A stretch of DNA of 64,000 nucleotides from an uncultured Clostridia bacterium (GCA_934633985.1 CAKTYU010000004.1:11519-75518), one strand, 5' to 3'; shown: positions 3,351 through 30,521, numbered from the stretch's first letter. The notes: generated by a model not told the origin, from the sequence alone. Made by a program: numbers and translations.

Positions 3351-4535
3351 TTAGATGAGGTTCTTTTCGTCCTGCTTGCTGAACATGTGCAGCACGTTGC
3401 CGCCGAAGGTGAAGTTTATCCTGTTTCCGTAGCTGAACATCTGATGGGCGCTGCCCTCGAGGTCCATGGTGGGGATTATCACCACAACGTCCTTGCCGTT
3501 GGCCTCCACGTGGAGATGCACGGAGCTTCCCATCATCTCGGATACGTCCACCGTCGCGCTGATGTGCGCCGCCGCGTCGTCTGAGCACAGCATTATGTGC
3601 TCCGGCCTGATGCCGAGGGTTATATCCTGCGGCTCGGCGTTTTTGTCCCTAAGCGCCTGCTGCTTATCCTCGGGCAGGCACACCTTGGCGCCGTCCAGCT
3701 CAATATAGTACCCGTCGGCGTCCTTATCCAGCCTTGCATCGAAGAAGTTCATCTGGGGAGTGCCTATGAAGCCCGCCACGAAGAGGTTCGCGGGGTGGTT
3801 GAACACCTCCTGAGGGGTGCCTATCTGCTGTATGAAGCCGTCCCGCATTATTACTATGCGGTCGCCCAGGGTCATTGCCTCGGTCTGGTCGTGGGTCACG
3901 TAAACGAAGGTGGTATTTATCCTCTGACGCAGCTTTATAAGCTCGGCGCGCATCTGGTTGCGGAGCTTTGCGTCGAGGTTGGAGAGGGGCTCGTCCATCA
4001 GGAATACGGCAGGGTCGCGCACTATCGCCCGCCCTATGGCCACGCGCTGGCGCTGTCCGCCGGAGAGGGCCTTGGGCTTGCGGTCGAGATACTCGGTTAT
4101 GTCCAGTATTTCCGCCGCTTCCCTTACCTTGCGGTCTATCTCGTCCTTAGGGGTTTTTTTGAGCTTGAGCGAGAAGGCCATATTCTCATATACCGTCATG
4201 TGAGGATACAGCGCGTAGTTCTGGAATACCATGGCGATATTCCTGTCCTTGGGGGCCACGTCGTTCATAAGCTTGTCGCCTATGTACAGCTCGCCGGCGG
4301 TGATGTCCTCCAGCCCCGCTATCATACGCAGGGTAGTGGACTTTCCGCATCCGGAGGGGCCAACCAGCACGATAAATTCCTTGTCCGCGATGTCGAGGTT
4401 GAACTCCTGCACCGCCACGACGCCCTCGTCCGTGATCTGAAGGTTGTGCTTCTTTTCGGCCTGTTCCTTGGCCTTTTTCTTGGGCTCGCTGTTGGGGTAG
4501 ACCTTCTTGATGTTTTTCAGGCTTACTTCTGCCAT
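3351..4535 (-). CDS. msmX: orphan sugar ABC transporter ATP-binding protein (MsmX/MalK/UgpC type)
   Basis: Walker A GPSGCGKST, signature LSGGQRQR, Walker B FLMDEPLSNLD, MalK-type C-terminal domain. Close to my recollection of B. subtilis MsmX. No permease or binding-protein gene adjacent. ATG 4535 (MAEVSLKNIKK) chosen by homology; TTG 4571 is the ORF-track start. Confidence 0.9.
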   Translation of the reverse strand: MAEVSLKNIKKVYPNSEPKKKAKEQAEKKHNLQITDEGVVAVQEFNLDIADKEFIVLVGPSGCGKSTTLRMIAGLEDITAGELYIGDKLMNDVAPKDRNIAMVFQNYALYPHMTVYENMAFSLKLKKTPKDEIDRKVREAAEILDITEYLDRKPKALSGGQRQRVAIGRAIVRDPAVFLMDEPLSNLDAKLRNQMRAELIKLRQRINTTFVYVTHDQTEAMTLGDRIVIMRDGFIQQIGTPQEVFNHPANLFVAGFIGTPQMNFFDARLDKDADGYYIELDGAKVCLPEDKQQALRDKNAEPQDITLGIRPEHIMLCSDDAAAHISATVDVSEMMGSSVHLHVEANGKDVVVIIPTMDLEGSAHQMFSYGNRINFTFGGNVLHMFSKQDEKNLI

Positions 4536-4913
4536 ATTCTTTTTTCGGCTGCGACCGTCCTGCCTCCGCAATGAACGGCCTCGGGATAAAGGCGCTTATC
4601 CCATTACGACAGGTCTCCACACTGCCGCACCGCCAGCCGCGGCGGATCTTCTCCTTTTTTAGCCCCTCGCGCGTTATTTTTTAAGTGGAGTAACGCGCAG
4701 GGGTTAAATAGGCTTATTTTATTAAATATAGCACATCCGCCCGCGCCATTTCAACGCCTGCACGCCGTATTTTTTCACTTTTTCCATAAAGAAAAACGGC
4801 GAATTTGTTAAAGGATAAACTTTTCTTGAAAATGCCCCCGCCGATGCTATATTATAGTCTGTGTAGAAATATAATTTCCCCCACAGCTTCTTATGTTCCC
4901 CGGAGGACTTCAA

Positions 4914-7305: not shown

Positions 7306-7438
7306 GGCCGATACACTCCATGCATATCATTATGGCCTTTTGCATGACGGCGTTGGCCTCGCCCTTTACCGCGCCTATGACGATAAAGGCCAGCCCTGCC
7401 GCTAAAAGTGCCAATGATATAATACTACGCTTTTTCAT
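7298..7438 (-). CDS. 46-aa single-TM CXXC peptide (CD1871A-like), absent from the ORF track
   Basis: Own translation: MKKRSIISLALLAAGLAFIVIGAVKGEANAVMQKAIMICMECIGLG. Positive N-terminus, one TM helix, C-terminal C-M-E-C-I-G-L-G. Overlaps both neighbouring genes (14 nt upstream, 8 nt downstream). Matches my recollection of the NCBI 'CD1871A family CXXC motif-containing protein'. Confidence 0.65.
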   Translation of the reverse strand: MKKRSIISLALLAAGLAFIVIGAVKGEANAVMQKAIMICMECIGLG

Positions 7439-8351
7439 TCATCACCGTTTCTATAATGTCTATCCATTTCTGCTTGCTCTTTGCGCCGTGGACCACCGTT
7501 ATGAGCCTGCCCTCGGAGTCGTAAAACTTCGTCGTGGGCACCGTATTTACGCCCTGGAGCATGGTTTTTATCACGCTCGAGCTGGCGGTAATGTTGGTGA
7601 AATTGCCCCCTGCGCTTTCAAACATCTCCTTGGAGCTGAGCACCATATCGGGATTCTCCGGCATCGCGTCCGCCGAGAGGCCGATTATCCTGAAGCCGCT
7701 TCCCTTGTATTCCCTTGCCAATTCTGAGAGATCACCCATCTCTTGCAGACAGCTCGGTCAGGTACGGGTCCAGATGTTCACCATGGTCACGCTGCTCTTG
7801 CCGAACAGGCTGCTGCCGACGCTGCTGCCGTCCAGCGTGGTGGTCTCGAAGCTGATGGCCTTTGAGCCGCTCTCATAGGAGAGGGACTGCTTTGTATAGT
7901 TGCCGGCGTATGGCGTCCTTACTTTTTTCTCGGGCGCGGAGGTAGGAGTAGCCTCGGGCTTTTTCTCGTCCTTCTTTTCGTCCTTCTTGCCGTCCTTTTT
8001 GCCGTCCTGCTTCTCTTCCTTCCGCTCCTTGCCGCCGCTCTGCTTGTCCTCCTGTTTTTGGGGCCGCCTTGTGGGCGTTGGCGTGGGCTCGGGGGTGGGT
8101 ACCGGGGTAACTACGGGCTGCGGGGTGGTATATCCGGTTATGGCGACAAAGGTAGTGTCGTCGCCGTAATGCTCGTCGTCCAGATATCCTACGTCCACCA
8201 TGACAAAGGTGTCCGCCTGCGCCCTTTTCGCGCAGCCAAAGGAGCATAAAAAGCCCGCCGCCAGCACTGCCGGCAAAACCCTTTTGGCCGCCCTGTGAGC
8301 ATGTCCCCTTTTACTTGCGGCACATGCCGAATATTCTTCCTTCTTATACAT
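7425..8351 (-). CDS. membrane-anchored TlpA/ResA-type thioredoxin-fold protein with in-frame UGA (probable selenocysteine) at 7758-7760
   Basis: ORFs 7758..8351 and 7425..7739 share a frame (612 nt apart). Read-through gives ...GKSSVTMVNIWTRT-[UGA]-PSCLQEMGDLSELAREYKGSGFRIIGLSAD...VPTTKFYDSEGRL. The UGA is at the first Cys of the WCxxC motif. N-terminal hydrophobic anchor with possible lipobox, then a Pro/Thr- and Lys/Glu-rich linker. Confidence 0.7.
7723..7749 (-). promoter_or_regulatory. candidate bacterial SECIS hairpin
   Basis: mRNA after UGA: CCGAGCUG-U-CUG-CA-AGAGAU-GGGUG-AUCUCU-CAG-A. Six-bp upper stem, GGGUG apical loop, 3-4 bp lower stem with a 2-nt bulge. The first loop G is 21 nt after the UGA. 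Confidence 0.55.
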
Positions 8352-11796: not shown

Positions 11797-12030
11797 CAAT
11801 AAAAAAATCCGCCCCGCCCTTTCATTCAAAGGACGAGCGGACCCGCGGTACCACCTTTATTGAGCGCAGCGCGCTCCTCTTTTGCGCCGTAACGGGGCGC
11901 GCCCGCCGGGGGCTACCTGTTATTTCACCTCCGGGGCTCCTAAGCGACCTTCTGCCCTCTCCTTGCAAACAGCCCTCTCAGCCGGCGGGGCCGTCTCTCT
12001 TGTGCGGTATGAGCGCATACTCCTCTTAAT
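11797..12030 (-). promoter_or_regulatory. T-box leader (valine-specific) controlling valS
   Basis: Conserved T-box AAUAAAGGUGGUACCGCGGG (RC of 11841-11860). Overlapping terminator TCCGCTCGTCCTTT-GAATG-AAAGGGCGGGGCGGA + TTTTTTT (11801-11841). Candidate specifier GUC (Val) in AGAAG-GUC-GC at 11946-11948. The 5' end is approximate. Confidence 0.85.
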
Positions 12031-12043
12031 CCTTGCCATTATT

Positions 12044-26584: not shown

Positions 26585-26612
26585 TTGACATTATGCTGAA
26601 AATATGTATAAT
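26585..26612 (+). promoter_or_regulatory. near-consensus sigma-A promoter for tRNA-Glu
   Basis: TTGACA (26585-26590), 16-nt spacer, TATAAT (26607-26612), 11 nt upstream of the tRNA 5' end. Confidence 0.7.
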
Positions 26613-26623
26613 TAATTGTGCTT

Positions 26624-26699
26624 GCTCGATTCGTCTAGTGGCCTAGGACACCGCCCTCTCACGGCGGGAACAGGGGTTCGACTCCCCTATCGGGTACCA
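26624..26699 (+). tRNA. tRNA-Glu (anticodon CUC), CCA encoded
   Basis: Hand-folded cloverleaf: GCUCGAU-UC-GUC-UAGUGGCCUAG-GAC-A-CCGCC-CUCUCAC-GGCGG-GAAC-AGGGG-UUCGACU-CCCCU-AUCGGGU-A-CCA (76 nt). Two G-U pairs in the acceptor stem. Confidence 0.88.
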
Positions 26700-26700
26700 T

Positions 26701-26945
26701 AAAAAAGCGGCTTAACGCCGCTTCAGAGTGTCAAAAAAGTGGCTGAATGCCACTTTTTTGAGTTTTACGGGTTTTGCCTCTCGCATTCGCTCCCGGGCGG
26801 CAAAATCCGCAAAGTACGAAAACCTCTGGGTTTTCATCCGTTCTGACGCACATGTCGTCAGAACCGGATTAAACATAAGGGGCTGCGGCCCCTTATCAAC
26901 CCTGGGGTTTTTTGACAGACTGAAGCGGCTTAACGCCGCTTTTTT
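26701..26945. repeat. hairpin cluster bracketed by two copies of the same terminator-like module
   Basis: GCGGCTTAACGCCGC occurs at 26707-26721 and 26926-26940. Flanks GCTTCAGAGTGTCAAAAAA (26720-26738) and TTTTTTGACAGACTGAAGC (26908-26926) are complementary apart from an AG/GA pair. At least five further hairpins lie between them, including the bidirectional terminator GTGGC-TGAAT-GCCAC (26733-26759). Confidence 0.6.
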
Positions 26946-26958
26946 GTTATTCTTCCGG

Positions 26959-28152
26959 CTATCTGACGCCCTCCAGCATTTCCAGGAAAGCCTCTATGCG
27001 GGTGCGAAGCTGGCCTTCATCCCCGGGAGAATAGTCGGTACGGATATGCAGGAAGGGTACGCCTTCCTCGGCACAGATGTCTCCTATCGTTTTGCTCTCC
27101 ACATCAAACGGAGTGCAGGCGTGGACGGTGATGCTGATGACGCCGTCTACCCTCCATTCCGCAAGGGTACTGCGCAGCTGTTCGAAACGGCGGGTATTGG
27201 GCGACATTACCGCGCAGGGCACCTCAAGGTACTTCTCTGCAATGGCCGTCATGGGGTCGGCCTCCGGGCTCTCATTGATCGGCCGCCGCATATTCATTAT
27301 GCCGCAGCAGCCCTCGTAGCACACGATAGCCGCCCCCAGCTCCTCTATGACGCCGAGGGTCTTATCCACAACGCCGTCTATGCCCGCGCCGGAAACCAAT
27401 ATGCGCAGCGGGCGCTGCTCCGGCCTGTAGGGGCCCTTGCCCTCCTCCCATTGCTCACGCATAAGCCTGAGCATACGCTCGGTCTTTTCCAGCTTGTTTT
27501 TCTTATCCAGCATAAAATACTCCGCCGTGAGCACGCTTCGCATCTGCAAGCCGGTGGCGGCGGGCGGGTCCAGCTTGCCCAGCTCATAAAGCTGCGCCAT
27601 CTGGCTGCGCTCCCGGTTGAGTATGCGTATGGACTCCTGAAGCTTTTCGTCGGTTATCTCCACGCCGAAGCGCTCCTCAAGCGCCTCCTTAAAGCGTATA
27701 AGCTCCTCCCTCCAGCTTTCCAGCGACCGCTCCCGGTCGGGTATATTGGGAAGATGTATGACGTGCATCCGCTTAAGCTCCGAAAGCATCTCATACATCT
27801 TTTTCTTGCCGTCGCAGGTGGTCTCGCCCACTATAAGATCGGAATAGAAGGCGAAGGGGCAGGTTTCGCCCAGTATGTTACCATAGCTGGATTTGATGAG
27901 GGGGCAAAGATTTGCCGGCAGCTCAGTCTCCGCGAGGGGTATGGGCGGATCGTAATTGAAGCCGCAGAGCAGCACGTTGTACATACCCCCCGCGTTGATT
28001 ATCTCCATGGGGGCGTATTGGCAGAAGGAGCCTATAACTATATCCCCCTTTTCGGCAGCCTCCTTTACGAAAATGCTGGCGTTTTTCTTTGCGCCGGCAA
28101 ATTCGTCCATAATATCCTGCAATTCCTGAGTGCGATCCTTTAAGCTCTCCAT
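26959..28152 (-). CDS. 2-hydroxyacyl-CoA dehydratase-family / double-cubane-cluster-type reductase subunit (paralog B)
   Basis: 397 aa. Motifs LCPLIKSSYG, GETTCDGKKKMY, VMSPNTRR and TDYS, all shared with the paralog at 28416..29570. Confidence 0.75.
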   Translation of the reverse strand: MESLKDRTQELQDIMDEFAGAKKNASIFVKEAAEKGDIVIGSFCQYAPMEIINAGGMYNVLLCGFNYDPPIPLAETELPANLCPLIKSSYGNILGETCPFAFYSDLIVGETTCDGKKKMYEMLSELKRMHVIHLPNIPDRERSLESWREELIRFKEALEERFGVEITDEKLQESIRILNRERSQMAQLYELGKLDPPAATGLQMRSVLTAEYFMLDKKNKLEKTERMLRLMREQWEEGKGPYRPEQRPLRILVSGAGIDGVVDKTLGVIEELGAAIVCYEGCCGIMNMRRPINESPEADPMTAIAEKYLEVPCAVMSPNTRRFEQLRSTLAEWRVDGVISITVHACTPFDVESKTIGDICAEEGVPFLHIRTDYSPGDEGQLRTRIEAFLEMLEGVR

Positions 28153-28182
28153 AAAAGTTGCGATCCTTTCAAAAAAGTACCG

Positions 28183-28422
28183 TTATAATTCCAGCGTATA
28201 CACCTGACCGAAGGACAGTCCGTTTTCCCTTAAAAAGCCCTCTATCCTTTCCCTGTCCCGGGCCGGGGCGCGCCATGCAAAGCCACAGCTTGCGGTGATC
28301 TGGTTGGGCACGGGTATTATGCTCCCCGGTATATCGTGCTTGCGGCACGCCTCCTCCATCGCAAGGGCGGCGGTCATGTTAGGGAAGGATACTACCGTGC
28401 AGCTTTCCTTGTCCTTCAGCAT
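28183..28422 (-). CDS. DUF3343 (putative Se/S carrier-like) small protein
   Basis: 79 aa from ATG 28422 (MLKDKESCTVVSF...IPVPNQITASCGFAWR). The start overlaps the upstream stop (ATGCTGA). Single conserved Cys in the SCG context. Confidence 0.7.
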   Translation of the reverse strand: MLKDKESCTVVSFPNMTAALAMEEACRKHDIPGSIIPVPNQITASCGFAWRAPARDRERIEGFLRENGLSFGQVYTLEL

Positions 28423-29570
28423 AGAGTCTCTATAAACGCAGATATGCGCGTATCTATCTGCCCCGCATCCTCTTGGGAATAGTCCGTCTCCAGCGACATG
28501 TAGGGCACACCTATCCCCTCGCACAGCTTGCGCACCGCCCGCGTCTCTATCATGTATGTGGTGCAGGTCTGAAGGGTCACGTCAATTACGCCCTCCGCTC
28601 CAAATTCCCTTATCAGCTCGGGCAGGTTTTCCATGCGCCTCGAGTTGGGCGACATTACGGAGCAGCCGATGTTTATATAAGCGTCGGCGATGGCCTCCGC
28701 CATATCCTCCCGCTCCGTATCCACAAAGCAGCGGGCGGCCTTTATGCCGCTGCAATTTTCATAGCATACTACTGCGCCGCCGCTGCGCTCCACGGCGCCC
28801 ACCACCTTTTCCAGCACTCCCCCTATGGGGCAGCCGGTGATGAGTATGCGCCTTTCTTCTTTCTTTGTGCCGCCGGCCTCCCCGTATGCCCTGCGTATTT
28901 CGACGGTGAGGGCGCGGGTGGAGGCTATGGCCTCCTCCACGTCAAAGTTAAAGTTGAGCCCCTCCATGAATTTATATAGCTTCTGGCCGGAGATAGGCAC
29001 CGGTGAAATGCGCTGAAGCTCCATAAGCTCCGAACGGGCGCGGCGCAGCTCGTTACGCCTGTCAGCGGCCTTACGCAGCATCTCGTCGGTTATTTCAACG
29101 CCGGTTTCCCTGCTTACAAAATCGATAAATCGACGGATCTCGCTGATCCAGAGCTTGCGGGAATACGTGCGGTCTATGCCCTGAGGTATCTGGAGCACGT
29201 ACATTTTTTTGCGCTGCCCCAGCAGGTCGTACATTTTCTTTTTCCCGTCGCAGGTGGTCTCGCCGATGATAATATCCGACCAATAGGTATAGGGGCATTT
29301 GTCCGTTATGGCAAAGCCGTAGCTGGACTTGATAAGCGGGCAGAGGTTCTTGGGCAGGGCGGTCTCCGCCGCCGGTATGGTCTCGCCGCTCATCCCGCAA
29401 AGGCTCACTGAAAGCAGCCCTGCGGCGTCCAGCACCTCCAGCGGGGTATAGGTGCAGAAGTAGCCCGCCACCTTATATCCGTTTTCCTTTGCCGCCTTCA
29501 TCCTGAGAAAGCCGGCCTTGCGCCCCTCAGAGTATTCCTCAAAGCGCTTCGGCAGTTTTAGTTCCTCCAT
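28416..29570 (-). CDS. 2-hydroxyacyl-CoA dehydratase-family / double-cubane-cluster-type reductase subunit (paralog A)
   Basis: 384 aa. Motifs FCTYTPLEV, LCPLIKSSYG, GETTCDGKKKMY, VMSPNSRR and TDYS. Confidence 0.75.
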   Translation of the reverse strand: MEELKLPKRFEEYSEGRKAGFLRMKAAKENGYKVAGYFCTYTPLEVLDAAGLLSVSLCGMSGETIPAAETALPKNLCPLIKSSYGFAITDKCPYTYWSDIIIGETTCDGKKKMYDLLGQRKKMYVLQIPQGIDRTYSRKLWISEIRRFIDFVSRETGVEITDEMLRKAADRRNELRRARSELMELQRISPVPISGQKLYKFMEGLNFNFDVEEAIASTRALTVEIRRAYGEAGGTKKEERRILITGCPIGGVLEKVVGAVERSGGAVVCYENCSGIKAARCFVDTEREDMAEAIADAYINIGCSVMSPNSRRMENLPELIREFGAEGVIDVTLQTCTTYMIETRAVRKLCEGIGVPYMSLETDYSQEDAGQIDTRISAFIETLC

Positions 29571-29585
29571 GCTCGATCCTCCGAT

Positions 29586-30356
29586 CTATTTCATATTCCG
29601 CGCATAAAGGGCCGCCCCTATCGCGCCGGCATAGCGGGCGAGGGGTGCGCTCTTTACGGGCGCCCCTATCTTTTCAGAAAGCATCTCCAATATAAACGGC
29701 AGCTCGCAAAGCCCTCCCGAAAGGTAAAAGTCGCCGCCGCTCACCGCTAGCCGCCCGAGCTGTCCCCATACCTTGCTGGCTATGGACTCCACTATGCCGT
29801 ATGCTATGTCCTCCTTGTCCGTGCCGCGCCCTATGAGGCTGACCACCTCGGATTCCGCGAATACCGTACACATGGAGGATATGCTCACATGGTTCCTGCT
29901 GCGGCGGGCCAGCTCGCAAAGCTCGTCCAGCCTTACGCCCAGCGTCCCCGCCATTATATCCAAAAAGCGGCCTGTCCCCGCGGAGCATTTGTCGTTCATT
30001 ATAAAGTTCTGCACCCGTCCGTCCCTTACCTCGATTATCTTGGTATCCTGCCCGCCTATATCTATGACGGTAAAGCCATCGCTTTTGAACAGCCATGACG
30101 CGCCCTTTCCGTGGCACGATATCTCGGTGACGGTCTTATGGGCAAAGGGTATGGACACCCGCCCGTAGCCCGTTGCTACTATCCGCGCGTCATTTTTATG
30201 TATGTCACGCGCCTCCATATCGCCGAGCAGGCCCTCCGTCGTTTCAACGCAGTTCCAGCCCGTCGGGACCACCTTGCTGAAGATCAGGCTGCCCTCTTCG
30301 TCAAGGACCGCCGCCTTGGTGCAGGTAGAGCCCACATCGAATCCTATATAACGCAT
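29586..30356 (-). CDS. BcrAD/BadFG/HgdC-type ATPase activator (acyl-CoA dehydratase activase-like)
   Basis: MRYIGFDVGSTCTK, DIGGQDTK, NDKCSAGTGRFLD (bridging-cluster Cys). ATG 30356 preceded by GGAGAG. The ORF-track start 30431 is probably over-extended. Confidence 0.85.
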   Translation of the reverse strand: MRYIGFDVGSTCTKAAVLDEEGSLIFSKVVPTGWNCVETTEGLLGDMEARDIHKNDARIVATGYGRVSIPFAHKTVTEISCHGKGASWLFKSDGFTVIDIGGQDTKIIEVRDGRVQNFIMNDKCSAGTGRFLDIMAGTLGVRLDELCELARRSRNHVSISSMCTVFAESEVVSLIGRGTDKEDIAYGIVESIASKVWGQLGRLAVSGGDFYLSGGLCELPFILEMLSEKIGAPVKSAPLARYAGAIGAALYARNMK

Positions 30357-30490
30357 AAATTTTCTCTCCGACAGATATTTTTGCGGCAGCGCCCACAGCG
30401 CCCCTTGGGTGCAGTTTGATTCTATCAACAAAAGCCATAAGGGTAAAATTCAAAATTTCGATATCGGCCGTTTATGATATAATTTTTGAA

Positions 30491-30521
30491 TATGAAAAGG
30501 GCGGGGTGCTTCCCCCGCCCT
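30491..30521 (-). terminator. terminator after the UPF0316 gene
   Basis: Minus strand: AGGGCGGGG-GAAGCA-CCCCGCCCT then TTTTCATATTC. Confidence 0.75.

What the first reader, a model, noticed from the sequence alone, without database searches (positions are those of the whole stretch)
26959..30356. ATPase activator plus two paralogous double-cubane/HgdB-like subunits flanking a DUF3343 Se/S-carrier-like gene
This is a tightly packed operon, with gaps of 15 and 30 nt and one ATGCTGA overlap. It encodes an HgdC/BcrAD-type electron-transfer ATPase (DVGSTCTK, NDKCSAGTGRF) and two similar-sized (384 and 397 aa) members of the 2-hydroxyacyl-CoA dehydratase superfamily. Both members carry the same Cys-containing motifs: LCPLIKSSYG, GETTCDGKKKMY, VMSPN(S/T)RR and TDYS. 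A 79-aa DUF3343-type protein with a single conserved Cys (ITASCGFAW) lies between them. Classical dehydratases pair dissimilar A and B subunits. The motif-identical pair here looks more like the double-cubane [Fe8S9] cluster protein described from Carboxydothermus, an ATP-dependent low-potential reductase whose physiological substrate is unknown, but as a heterodimer. The embedded sulfur/selenium-carrier-like protein hints at a chalcogen-containing substrate or cofactor. A probable selenoprotein gene lies about 19 kb away in the same window. No acyl-CoA transferase or other fermentation-pathway gene accompanies the operon.
Basis: partly seen in the sequence, partly recalled or inferred. Interest (0 to 1): 0.65.

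Follow-up and report, generated by a model that had tools for sequence, protein, structure and literature searches.

The report
Two-subunit double-cubane reductase with selenium/sulfur carrier
A four-gene operon in a gut Clostridia-type bacterium encodes an ATP-driven, very-low-potential iron-sulfur reductase built from two diverged subunits plus a small cysteine carrier protein, and related genomes place this same module among selenium-handling genes, which points to a selenium-related job for an enzyme family whose natural substrate is still unknown.

Summary
On the minus strand, 26959-30356 holds ATPase (256 aa), DCCP paralog D1 (384 aa), DUF3343 (79 aa) and DCCP paralog D2 (397 aa), with 15-nt and 30-nt gaps and one ATGCTGA overlap.

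- **Family:** both paralogs pass NCBIfam NF040772 (double-cubane anaerobic reductase). Their best solved relative is C. hydrogenoformans DCCP, and both keep all seven motif cysteines. They fail every dehydratase and benzoyl-CoA reductase model.
- **Paralogs:** D1 and D2 are 39% identical and belong to two conserved subtypes.
- **Arrangement:** all 25 close D2 relatives with enough flank sit in ATPase-D1-DUF3343-D2. D1-type genes often occur alone.
- **Distant D2 relatives:** two of the three D2-type relatives (55-60% identical) whose contexts I read lie inside Haft's selenoprotein-rich SAO locus.
- **D1-type loci:** in 11 of 30 lineages DUF3343 lies nearby, usually with YedF, a selenocysteine-lyase-like enzyme and sometimes SelD.

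My reading is a probably heterodimeric ATP-driven reductase acting on selenium (or sulfur) handed over by the DUF3343 cysteine. The reductase identity is firm. The heterodimer and the selenium role are inferred.

The DCCP-selenium link is already published, so this is a new variant of a known but functionally unsolved kind. Interest is moderate.

The parts
30419..30447 (-). Promoter-like site upstream of the ATPase gene (TTTACC-17-TAGAAT with a TG extension). It lies just downstream of the terminator of the preceding gene (30498-30521).
   Evidence: Consensus scan. This is weak evidence: 9 of 12 positions match. No riboswitch or other known RNA family is found in the leader.
29586..30356 (-). 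DCCP-R / HgdC-type electron-transfer ATPase ('archerase'), 256 aa. The two cysteines (C124, C163) that would bridge a [4Fe-4S] cluster in the homodimer are present.
   Evidence: - PF01869: 190 bits. TIGR00241: 243 bits against a cut-off of 125.
- PDB 1HUX (HgdC) E = 3e-60. 7YYL_E (DCCP-R) E = 1.6e-43. NDKC and S(S/T)C are aligned.
28416..29570 (-). DCCP paralog D1, 384 aa, short (YjiM-like) form.
- Seven-Cys motif: C39, C58, C77, C107, C273, C303, C336.
- Additional conserved Cys: C92, the subtype-specific C247, and C269.
   Evidence: - NF040772: 472.9 bits against a cut-off of 350.
- 6ENO/7YYL: E about 5e-74.
- Cys positions. Conservation across 123 D1-type sequences.
28183..28422 (-). DUF3343 / Se_S_carrier protein, 79 aa. 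Its start overlaps the D1 stop (ATGCTGA). Cys46 is invariant, in the motif IPVPxxITA(S/G)CGFAW.
   Evidence: - PF11823: 77.5 bits against a cut-off of 25.
- Cys46 is invariant in 62 unique relatives.
- AF2 model: pLDDT 89.7, beta-alpha-beta-beta-alpha-beta fold.
- PDB shows only generic ferredoxin-like matches.
26959..28152 (-). DCCP paralog D2, 397 aa, short form.
- Seven-Cys motif: C44, C63, C83, C113, C282, C313, C346.
- Additional Cys: C98, C278, C360.
- Ala stands where D1 has C247.
   Evidence: - NF040772: 440.7 bits against a cut-off of 350.
- 6ENO/7YYL: E about 4e-64.
- 39% identical to D1.
- Conservation in 41 D2-type sequences.
26704..26942 (-). 3' region of the operon.
- A hairpin at 26922-26942 has a T-run only on the plus strand.
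- About 200 nt of hairpin-rich spacer follows.
- An intrinsic-terminator-like site for the minus strand lies at 26704-26724.
   Evidence: Consensus scan. Rfam at a permissive threshold finds nothing convincing here.

Best explanation
The operon encodes a complete ATP-dependent double-cubane reductase system.

1. **Electron injection.** The ATPase homodimer takes an electron from a cellular donor. It uses ATP hydrolysis to inject that electron at very low potential into [8Fe-9S] double-cubane clusters. This step is shown for the C. hydrogenoformans homolog and inferred here from homology.
2. **Acceptor.** The acceptor is built from two diverged paralogs, D1 and D2. Each keeps all cluster ligands. 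They most likely form a D1/D2 heterodimer on the two-fold axis of the ATPase dimer, as HadBC and BzdNO do in the same superfamily (inferred).
3. **Carrier.** The DUF3343 protein is translated in step with D1. It is a cysteine-based carrier that brings a selenium atom (or sulfur atom) to the open, short-form active site, for example as Cys-S-Se(-) received from a selenocysteine-lyase-like enzyme or YedF.
4. **Reaction.** The reductase releases the atom as selenide for SelD-dependent selenium use (inferred from gene neighbourhoods in other genomes).

My estimates:

| Claim | Probability |
|---|---|
| DCCP-type reductase | about 0.95 |
| Functional coupling to DUF3343 | about 0.7 |
| Role in selenium metabolism | about 0.5-0.6 |
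| D1/D2 heteromer | about 0.55 |
| The specific 'carrier-bound Se to selenide' step | about 0.25-0.3 |
For: **Family identity**
- NF040772 is above its cut-off for both paralogs.
- The best solved relatives are 6ENO/7YYL.
- All seven motif Cys are present in both.
- A cognate ATPase is adjacent.

**Mechanism of the homolog**
- One ATPase dimer sits on the two-fold axis of the DCCP dimer.
- The cluster is not reducible by dithionite or Ti(III) citrate.
- Acetylene, hydrazine and azide are reduced.

**Heteromer**
- 25 of 25 close D2 relatives with enough flank are in D1-DUF3343-D2, and 23 of 23 have one upstream ATPase.
- 7 of 9 distant D2 relatives have a D1-type gene in the same locus. So do the three additional D2-type contexts read (Tissierella, Zhaonellaceae, Bariatricus).
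- D1-type genes are single in 25 of 30 lineages.
- D1 has C247 in 123 of 123 sequences, where D2 has Ala.

**Carrier and selenium link**
- Of 62 unique DUF3343 sequences in the surveyed loci, 57 directly abut a DCCP, YedF, selenocysteine-lyase-like or ATPase gene. These include 20 D-u-D sandwiches, 22 YedF-u-Scl arrangements and one Scl-u-D chain in L016.
- Near D1-type DCCP/ATPase genes, DUF3343 occurs in 11 of 30 lineages, YedF in 10, TIGR01977/SclA-like in 9 and SelD in 3.
- D2-type genes lie between saoD and saoP, with in-frame TGA codons in SaoP, SaoT and SaoB.
- In the literature, 955 of 970 strong NF040772 hits are in SelD genomes, and STRING links DUF3343, YedF and Sec lyase to the activase and an HgdB-like gene in Slackia.
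- The window organism probably decodes selenocysteine.
Against: - No SelD, YedF, SclA-like or Sao gene lies within the 64-kb window. In 19 of 30 D1-type lineages no DUF3343 was seen nearby. The selenium link is therefore contextual, not universal.
- C. hydrogenoformans DCCP is a homodimer and works without any carrier in vitro.
- S-Se bonds are easily reduced by thiols, so an ATP-driven reductase seems excessive for a perselenide. A harder substrate such as Se(0) or an organo- or metal-selenium species may be the real one.
- DUF3343 families also occur in SelD-lacking organisms, so sulfur cannot be excluded.
- No biochemical data exist for any DUF3343 protein.
Confidence: 0.5

Rival explanations
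1. DUF3343 is a maturation factor rather than a substrate carrier. It delivers the bridging mu2-sulfide, or a selenide in a Se-bridged analogue, that joins the two cubanes during assembly of the D1 and D2 cofactors. The link to SelD and Sec-lyase genes would then reflect cofactor biosynthesis.
For: - Haft lists a selenium-bridged cofactor as a formal possibility that would explain the NF040772-SelD co-occurrence.
- DUF3343 is translationally coupled to a DCCP gene, and in other genomes to a cysteine-desulfurase/Sec-lyase-family gene. Fe-S assembly relays show the same pattern.
- DCCP depends on SelD-containing genomes, whereas most SelD genomes lack DCCP.
Against: - Recombinant DCCP made in E. 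coli without DUF3343 carries an [8Fe-9S] cluster and is active.
- Many D1-type loci have no DUF3343 nearby.
- A stoichiometric, operon-internal position between the two subunit genes is unusual for an assembly factor.
Confidence: 0.2
2. D1 and D2 are two independent homodimeric isoenzymes that share one activase. They reduce different small or medium-sized non-chalcogen substrates (detoxification or an unknown fermentation step). DUF3343 would be a redox or regulatory accessory with no S/Se transfer role.
For: - The only characterised DCCP is a homodimer that reduces acetylene, hydrazine and azide.
- The window operon has no selenium genes beside it.
- Genomes often hold several DCCP copies.
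Against: - D2-type genes almost never occur without a D1-type gene in the same locus.
- DUF3343 neighbours are overwhelmingly DCCP, YedF or Sec-lyase-like genes.
- D2-type genes are embedded within SAO selenoprotein loci.
Confidence: 0.2
3. The operon is an ordinary 2-hydroxyacyl-CoA dehydratase or class I benzoyl-CoA reductase, with its pathway genes located elsewhere.
For: - Both paralogs carry the Pfam HGD-D domain. They hit the HadC, BzdN and BcrC models weakly.
- The ATPase's best PDB match is HgdC.
- Older annotations call relatives '2-hydroxyacyl-CoA dehydratase'.
Against: - Scores are far below the equivalog cut-offs: HadC 66 and 100 bits against 700, and BzdN 81 and 88 bits against 454.
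- Neither gene is an alpha/substrate-binding type. Both carry the seven-Cys double-cubane motif.
- There is only one ATPase gene, where benzoyl-CoA reductase needs two.
- No CoA-transferase or acyl-CoA genes are nearby.
Confidence: 0.03

Closest known systems
DCCP / DCCP-R of Carboxydothermus hydrogenoformans (CHY_0487/0488; PDB 6ENO, 7YYL)
   Same: - Same family by HMM and by best PDB match.
- All seven motif Cys are present.
- An ATPase gene of the HgdC/BcrAD type is adjacent.
- The expected mechanism is the same: ATP-driven injection of low-potential electrons into an [8Fe-9S] cluster.
   Different: - Here there are two 39%-identical paralogs instead of one homodimeric protein.
- Both lack about 32-37 N-terminal residues of the 421-aa enzyme. 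This is the short form, which the review says lacks the channel-closing helices.
- Extra conserved Cys are present: C247 and C269 in D1, and C278 and C360 in D2.
- A DUF3343 gene is inserted between the two paralogs.
E. coli YjiL/YjiM (proposed class II DCCP, uncharacterised)
   Same: Short DCCP of about 385-400 aa, with the full seven-Cys motif and an adjacent activase. Function is unknown.
   Different: Per the review, YjiM is a single DCCP associated with YjiL. I did not compare the sequences directly because YjiM was not retrievable with these tools.
[quoted passage not shown]
   Same: D2-type relatives (55-60% identical) lie between saoD and saoP. A D1-type gene lies a few kb upstream on the other strand in the Tissierella and Zhaonellaceae loci. 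An ATPase gene lies beside that D1-type gene in the Zhaonellaceae locus. DUF3343 is seen at the edge of the Zhaonellaceae locus.
   Different: - The window has none of the nine sao genes within 64 kb.
- Here the module is compacted into one operon, ATPase-D1-DUF3343-D2.
- Haft's preprint mentions neither DUF3343 nor D1/D2 subtypes.
Selenium-utilisation clusters with SelD, YedF, DUF3343 and a Sec-lyase-family gene (Lin et al. 2015; Slackia/Collinsella type)
   Same: DUF3343 with an invariant Cys lies next to DCCP and activase genes. Two different DCCP paralogs occur per locus.
   Different: - In Collinsella the second paralog is a long (427 aa) type, not D2.
- There, DUF3343 sits between YedF and the Sec-lyase-like gene rather than between the DCCPs.
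- The window lacks SelD, YedF and Scl nearby.
Heterodimeric relatives: 2-hydroxyisocaproyl-CoA dehydratase HadBC/HadI and class I benzoyl-CoA reductase (BzdNOPQ/MbdNOPQ)
   Same: Same superfamily and the same ATPase type. They set a precedent for two diverged subunits sharing one ATPase dimer, and the benzoyl-CoA reductase carries an [8Fe-9S] cluster.
   Different: - Those enzymes pair a substrate-binding alpha-type subunit holding a 3-Cys [4Fe-4S] cluster with a beta-type subunit, and they act on CoA esters.
- Here both subunits are full seven-Cys double-cubane types, and no CoA-ester genes accompany them.

Membership tests
Double-cubane cluster protein (DCCP; NCBIfam NF040772) | Whole-protein score above the curated equivalog cut-off (350 bits) | tested here: met
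   D1 scores 472.9 bits and D2 scores 440.7 bits.
Double-cubane cluster protein (DCCP; NCBIfam NF040772) | Seven-Cys motif (six cluster ligands plus one nearby Cys), published as CX19CX18-19CX29CX166-170CX32-34CX32C | tested here: met
   - All seven Cys align to the Cys of 6ENO/7YYL.
- D1 spacings are 18/18/29/165/29/32. D2 spacings are 18/19/29/168/30/32.
- The fifth loop is 2-3 residues shorter than published.
- The motif is conserved in 123 D1-type, 41 D2-type and 46 other DCCPs.
Double-cubane cluster protein (DCCP; NCBIfam NF040772) | Cognate ATP-dependent reductase (DCCP-R, BcrAD/HgdC type) encoded alongside | tested here: met
   The ATPase gene is 15 nt upstream. PF01869 and TIGR00241 are both above cut-off. 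7YYL_E matches at E = 1.6e-43.
Double-cubane cluster protein (DCCP; NCBIfam NF040772) | Actual [8Fe-9S] cluster and ATP-dependent reduction of small molecules | not testable with these tools
   Needs anoxic purification, Fe/S analysis, EPR or a crystal structure, and activity assays.
Double-cubane cluster protein (DCCP; NCBIfam NF040772) | Homodimeric quaternary structure (as in the C. hydrogenoformans enzyme) | not testable with these tools
   Gene co-occurrence suggests a D1/D2 heteromer instead. No multimer prediction or coordinates were available.
2-hydroxyacyl-CoA dehydratase (HgdAB / HadBC / FldBC) | Dissimilar alpha (substrate-binding) and beta subunits that reach the equivalog models | tested here: not met
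   The HadC model gives 65.8 and 100.3 bits against a cut-off of 700. No alpha-type hit was found, and both genes are the DCCP type.
2-hydroxyacyl-CoA dehydratase (HgdAB / HadBC / FldBC) | Accompanying CoA-transferase or amino-acid fermentation genes | tested here: not met
   The neighbours are a Bmp-type ABC transporter, DUF2179, PAP2, CmpB, LysE, isochorismatase and an M3 peptidase.
Class I benzoyl-CoA reductase (BcrABCD / BzdNOPQ) | Two different ATPase subunits plus B/C (N/O) subunits that reach the equivalog models | tested here: not met
   There is one ATPase gene only. BzdN gives 80.8 and 88.3 bits against 453.8. BcrC gives 55 and 40 bits against 421.
DUF3343 / Se_S_carrier (PF11823) | Pfam gathering score, and the family's highly conserved Cys | tested here: met
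   The score is 77.5 bits against 25. Cys46 is invariant in 62 unique relatives. Lin 2015 describes the same conserved Cys.
DUF3343 / Se_S_carrier (PF11823) | Actual binding or transfer of Se or S | not testable with these tools
   No biochemical study was found. No solved homolog exists.
SAO (selenocysteine-assisted organometallic) system | Presence of the sao genes (SaoA, B, C, D, E, L, P, T, X) | tested here: not met
   phmmer searches with eight Sao proteins (SaoA, B, C, D, E, P, T, X) from L172 and a MerB-family (SaoL-like) protein from L169 hit only generic ABC ATPases in the window. The rest of the genome is unseen.

The most novel reading that the evidence does not exclude
The D1/DUF3343/D2/ATPase module is the missing very-low-potential step of bacterial selenium assimilation in strict anaerobes. 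A heterodimeric double-cubane enzyme uses ATP to reduce selenium held on the DUF3343 cysteine, or Se(0) or organo-/metal-selenium delivered by it, to selenide for SelD. Alternatively, it carries a selenium-bridged cluster. Either reading would give the first physiological function for the DCCP family and the first biochemical role for DUF3343.
Probability: 0.25. Interest if true: 0.8.

Novelty: new variant of a known kind. Interest (0 to 1): 0.5.

Why it matters
**The open question.** The physiological substrate of double-cubane cluster proteins has been unknown since their discovery in 2018. These are nitrogenase-like, ATP-driven reductases found in many anaerobes, including gut bacteria and pathogens. 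Comparative genomics has linked them statistically to selenium, without a mechanism.

**What this operon offers.** It is the most compact form of a recurring module, with four genes and no other partners. That makes it a convenient construct for testing three things:
- whether two DCCP subtypes form a heterodimer;
- whether DUF3343 is the physical link to selenium or sulfur trafficking;
- whether selenium is the substrate or part of the cofactor.

**A handle on subtypes.** The subtype signatures found here may help to separate functional classes that Haft could not distinguish. These are C247 in D1 only, C269 in D1 and D2 but not in the long forms, and D2-type genes (in two of the three such contexts read) lying inside SAO loci.

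Tried and rejected
- **Known RNA elements.** I looked for a riboswitch or other known RNA in the operon leader and in the 3' spacer with Rfam at a permissive threshold. Nothing was credible. The whole-window Rfam scan gave only malK-I, a T-box and a tRNA.
- **DUF3343 structure.** A sequence search of the PDB found no homolog. The AF2 model with Foldseek gave only generic ferredoxin-like folds (ACT, PII, CutA) at E >= 0.013, so no specific functional analogy can be drawn.
- **Selenium genes in the window.** I searched for SelD, YedF, Sec-lyase-like and Sao genes and found none.
- **ABC transporter beside the module in L005-L007.** I tested whether it is SaoP/SaoX/SaoB. It is not. SaoP scores 78.7 bits against a cut-off of 295, and the binding protein hits only SsuA-family weakly.
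- **Dehydratase and benzoyl-CoA reductase readings.** Both were considered and rejected on HMM cut-offs and context.
- **DUF3343 homolog search.** The word-indexed search returned only 22 close relatives. Wider DUF3343 detection relied on an HMM iterated on the fetched loci.
- **Limits of the tools.** I could not measure how far C247 and C269 lie from the cluster, because the structure tool returns no coordinates. For the same reason I could not model D1:D2 against D1:D1.
- **Paper not held.** The published J Bacteriol version of Haft's paper was not available. I used the preprint.

Full report
**1. Observation**

The minus strand between 26959 and 30356 carries four tightly packed ORFs:
- an ATPase, 29586-30356, 256 aa from the ATG;
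- a 384-aa protein (D1), 28416-29570;
- a 79-aa protein, 28183-28422;
- a 397-aa protein (D2), 26959-28152.

The sequence shows a 15-nt gap between the ATPase and D1. The D1 stop overlaps the start of the 79-aa gene in ATGCTGA. A 30-nt gap precedes D2. Each start has a purine-rich ribosome-binding site. All quoted motifs are present.

Pfam gives BcrAD_BadFG (E = 7.5e-56), HGD-D twice (E = 7e-106 and 3.5e-100) and Se_S_carrier/DUF3343 (E = 5.4e-22).

One detail needs correcting. DUF3343 has three cysteines. Cys46 is invariant in 62 unique relatives. Cys26 is conserved in 77% of those and is invariant within the close subfamily.

**2. What the proteins are**

Both large proteins pass the curated NCBIfam equivalog model NF040772, 'double-cubane-cluster-containing anaerobic reductase'. 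They score 472.9 and 440.7 bits against a cut-off of 350. They fall far below the cut-offs for the HadC, BzdN, BcrC and BzdO models.

Their best solved relatives are the C. hydrogenoformans double-cubane cluster protein (6ENO, 7YYL), at E about 5e-74 and 4e-64. BzdN, MbdN and HadC follow at E = 1e-10 to 1e-25.

The family is defined by a seven-Cys motif, with six cluster ligands and one nearby Cys. All seven align in both paralogs:
- D1: C39, C58, C77, C107, C273, C303, C336.
- D2: C44, C63, C83, C113, C282, C313, C346.

The only difference is a loop 2-3 residues shorter between the fifth and sixth Cys.

Both proteins start about 32-37 residues later than the 421-aa enzyme in the alignments. 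By length they therefore belong to the short, YjiM-like form. The review says this form lacks the channel-closing N-terminal helices and might take larger substrates. That placement is my inference from the alignment, not from a structure.

The ATPase matches HgdC (1HUX, E = 3e-60) and DCCP-R (7YYL_E, E = 1.6e-43). The two cluster-bridging Cys contexts, NDKC and S(S/T)C, are aligned.

**3. Context in the window**

The same four-gene unit is seen on independent contigs, and contigs with enough flank show the same neighbours. These are a Bmp-type ABC transporter, an unknown gene, DUF2179, then the operon, followed by PAP2, CmpB, LysE, isochorismatase and an M3 peptidase.

- No CoA-transferase or fermentation genes are present.
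- The window has no SelD, YedF, Sec-lyase-like or Sao genes.
- A promoter-like site (30447-30419) follows the terminator of the upstream gene.
- A terminator-like site for the minus strand lies at 26724-26704.
- No known RNA element is in the leader.

About 19.2 kb away, ORF 7428-8351 (-) has an in-frame TGA at 7758-7760 within WTRT-U-PSC. The AhpC/TSA-Redoxin domain spans both sides of it, and a hairpin follows. The organism therefore probably decodes selenocysteine and should have SelD.

**4. Two conserved DCCP subtypes**

D1 and D2 are 39% identical, so the duplication is old.

*Genome scan.* A scan of one genome per species, ranked by similarity to D1, returned 80 loci in 30 lineages at 80% identity. 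Twenty-five lineages have a single DCCP next to one ATPase.

*Metagenome scan.* A scan with D2 returned 80 loci.
- All 25 close relatives (66% identity or more) with at least 1.5 kb of upstream flank show ATPase-D1-DUF3343-D2.
- All 23 of those with enough flank have the ATPase.
- Four apparent exceptions are ORF-extension artefacts of my caller.
- Of nine distant D2 relatives (54-60% identity), seven have a D1-type gene in the same locus. The two exceptions have limited flank (a 2.2-kb contig, and 2.5 kb upstream of D2 on an 8.2-kb contig).

*Additional D2-type contexts.* I read three further contexts (55-60% identity), in Tissierella carlieri and in Zhaonellaceae and Bariatricus MAGs. In each, the D2-type gene again has a D1-type gene or a D1-leaning second DCCP gene nearby.

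D2 is thus almost never without D1, whereas D1 is often alone.

*Subtype signatures*:

| Position (D1 numbering) | D1-type | D2-type | Long (424-427 aa) type |
|---|---|---|---|
| C247 | Cys in 123 of 123 | Ala | Thr (as in DCCP_Ch) |
| C269 | Cys in 114 of 123 | Cys in 41 of 41 | Gly |
| 350 (C360 in D2 numbering) | Val commonest; Cys in 34 of 123 | Cys in 37 of 41 | no Cys (Ala commonest) |

In the solved complex, one ATPase dimer sits on the two-fold axis of the DCCP dimer and serves both clusters. One ATPase gene with two DCCP genes fits a D1/D2 heterodimer, by analogy with HadBC and BzdNO. This is inferred, not shown.

**5. DUF3343 and selenium**

The AF2 model is confident (pLDDT 89.7). 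It is a beta-alpha-beta-beta-alpha-beta fold with Cys46 in the loop before strand 3. No specific solved homolog exists.

Across all fetched loci, 57 of 62 unique DUF3343 sequences directly abut a DCCP, YedF, Sec-lyase-like or ATPase gene:
- 20 are D-u-D sandwiches.
- 22 are YedF-u-Scl arrangements.
- L016 has the chain ATPase-YedF-Scl-DUF3343-DCCP, with overlapping or abutting genes.

Near D1-type DCCP/ATPase genes, the neighbour counts out of 30 lineages are DUF3343 11, YedF 10, a TIGR01977/SclA-like PLP enzyme 9 and SelD 3. In Collinsella the order is DCCP(427)-DCCP(about 392)-ATPase-SelD-YedF-DUF3343-Scl.

The close relatives L005-L007 add a Sec-lyase-like gene and a Tau/Ssu-type ABC transporter upstream. 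L004 has three DCCPs, two DUF3343 genes and a Sec-lyase-like gene.

D2-type genes in Zhaonellaceae and Tissierella lie inside a bona fide SAO locus. In the Zhaonellaceae locus (L172), SaoT, E, C, B, A, D, P and X all score above their NCBIfam cut-offs. In-frame TGA codons occur in SaoP, SaoT and SaoB. DUF3343 lies at the edge of the locus.

**6. What is already known**

- Lin et al. 2015 proposed DUF3343 as a Se/S chaperone. Their STRING table for Slackia already lists the 'activase' and '2-hydroxyglutaryl-CoA dehydratase subunit' genes among its partners.
- Haft built NF040772. He found 955 of 970 strong hits in SelD genomes, linked DCCPs to the SAO locus, and raised a Se-bridged cofactor as a formal possibility. 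He found no signature separating DCCP classes and does not mention DUF3343.
- A study of mlp gene clusters draws DCCP and DCCP-R among putative selenium-metabolism genes.
- The structural papers state that the physiological function is unknown.
- NCBI already names D2 relatives 'double-cubane-cluster-containing anaerobic reductase'.

**7. Most likely mechanism**

*Shown by homology.* ATP hydrolysis by the ATPase dimer drives electrons into double-cubane clusters that ordinary reductants cannot reduce.

*Inferred.*
- D1/D2 form a heterodimer.
- DUF3343 Cys46 carries a selenium (or sulfur) atom, received from a Sec-lyase-like enzyme or YedF where these are present.
- The short-form, open active site, perhaps with C247 and C269, accepts that atom.
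- The reductase releases selenide for SelD.

From my own knowledge, not checked here, the Se(0)/HSe- couple is usually quoted as very negative at pH 7 (around -0.7 V). That would make an ATP-driven reductase sensible for Se(0)-like or otherwise refractory selenium. A simple perselenide would not need it.

*Rivals.*
- DUF3343 delivers the bridging S or Se during cofactor assembly.
- D1 and D2 are independent isoenzymes with no chalcogen link.
- The operon is a dehydratase or benzoyl-CoA reductase. This is rejected on cut-offs and context.

**8. Verdict**

The finding is real and correctly interpreted in outline. It is a new, compact variant (ATPase-D1-DUF3343-D2) of a known family whose function is unsolved. 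Its selenium association is published but unexplained.

- the D1/D2 subtype structure and its Cys signatures;
- the near-obligate pairing of D2 with D1;
- the consistent wedging of DUF3343 between DCCP, YedF and Sec-lyase-like genes;
- the placement of two of the three examined D2-type relatives (55-60% identical) inside SAO loci.

Interest is moderate (0.5). It would be high if the selenium-reductase or Se-cofactor reading were proven.

Noticed in passing
window 7428-8351 (-), TGA at 7758-7760: Probable selenoprotein. It is a lipoprotein-like TlpA/redoxin-type thiol-disulfide oxidoreductase with a U-P-S-C redox motif (WTRT-U-PSC). The AhpC/TSA-Redoxin domain spans the TGA, and a hairpin (GAGAU-GGGUG-AUCUC) starts about 14 nt after it.
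   Followed up: partly
window 26585-26942 (+): tRNA-Glu(CTC) lies at 26624-26699, behind a perfect 12/12 sigma-70 consensus promoter (26585-26612). About 200 nt of hairpin-rich sequence follows. It is bracketed by two copies of the same GC-rich hairpin (26704-26724 and 26922-26942), which act as terminators for opposite strands. No Rfam family fits the spacer.
   Followed up: partly
window 4530-4708 (-) and 11826-12042 (-): There is a malK-I RNA (137.6 bits), and a T-box leader (112.5 bits) upstream of an 880-aa ORF whose N-terminal sequence looks like an aminoacyl-tRNA synthetase (not checked). Both are ordinary cis-regulatory elements.
   Followed up: no
L164 3719-5857 and L167 (human gut metagenome contigs): A 712-aa protein fuses a full DCCP (HGD-D) domain to a C-terminal PucR-type HTH_30 DNA-binding domain. 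It sits next to a D1-type DCCP and an ATPase. It may be a DCCP-derived sensor or regulator.
   Followed up: partly
L172/L173 (Zhaonellaceae MAGs) and L168/L169 (Tissierella carlieri): A D2-type DCCP gene is embedded inside the SAO locus, between saoD and saoP. In Tissierella the locus is also flanked by URO-D/RACo genes of an mlp-type corrinoid methyltransferase cluster, which has been linked to methyl-selenide use.
   Followed up: partly
L004 3045-9455: One operon holds ATPase, a Sec-lyase-like gene, a long DCCP (424 aa), DUF3343 (90 aa), D1-type (382 aa), DUF3343 (79 aa) and D2-type (399 aa). That is three DCCP subtypes and two carriers together.
   Followed up: partly
Collinsella loci, e.g. 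L051, L075, L083: YedF often appears as two adjacent ORFs, and SelD ORFs start about 15 residues late. This suggests in-frame TGA (selenocysteine) codons in YedF and SelD of these genomes.
   Followed up: no
L135/L136 (e.g. L136 1344-1883): DUF3343 domain proteins of 169-179 aa carry an extra C-terminal region of about 95 aa, containing a GGGCP motif and matching no Pfam family. They lie just upstream of a DCCP gene.
   Followed up: no
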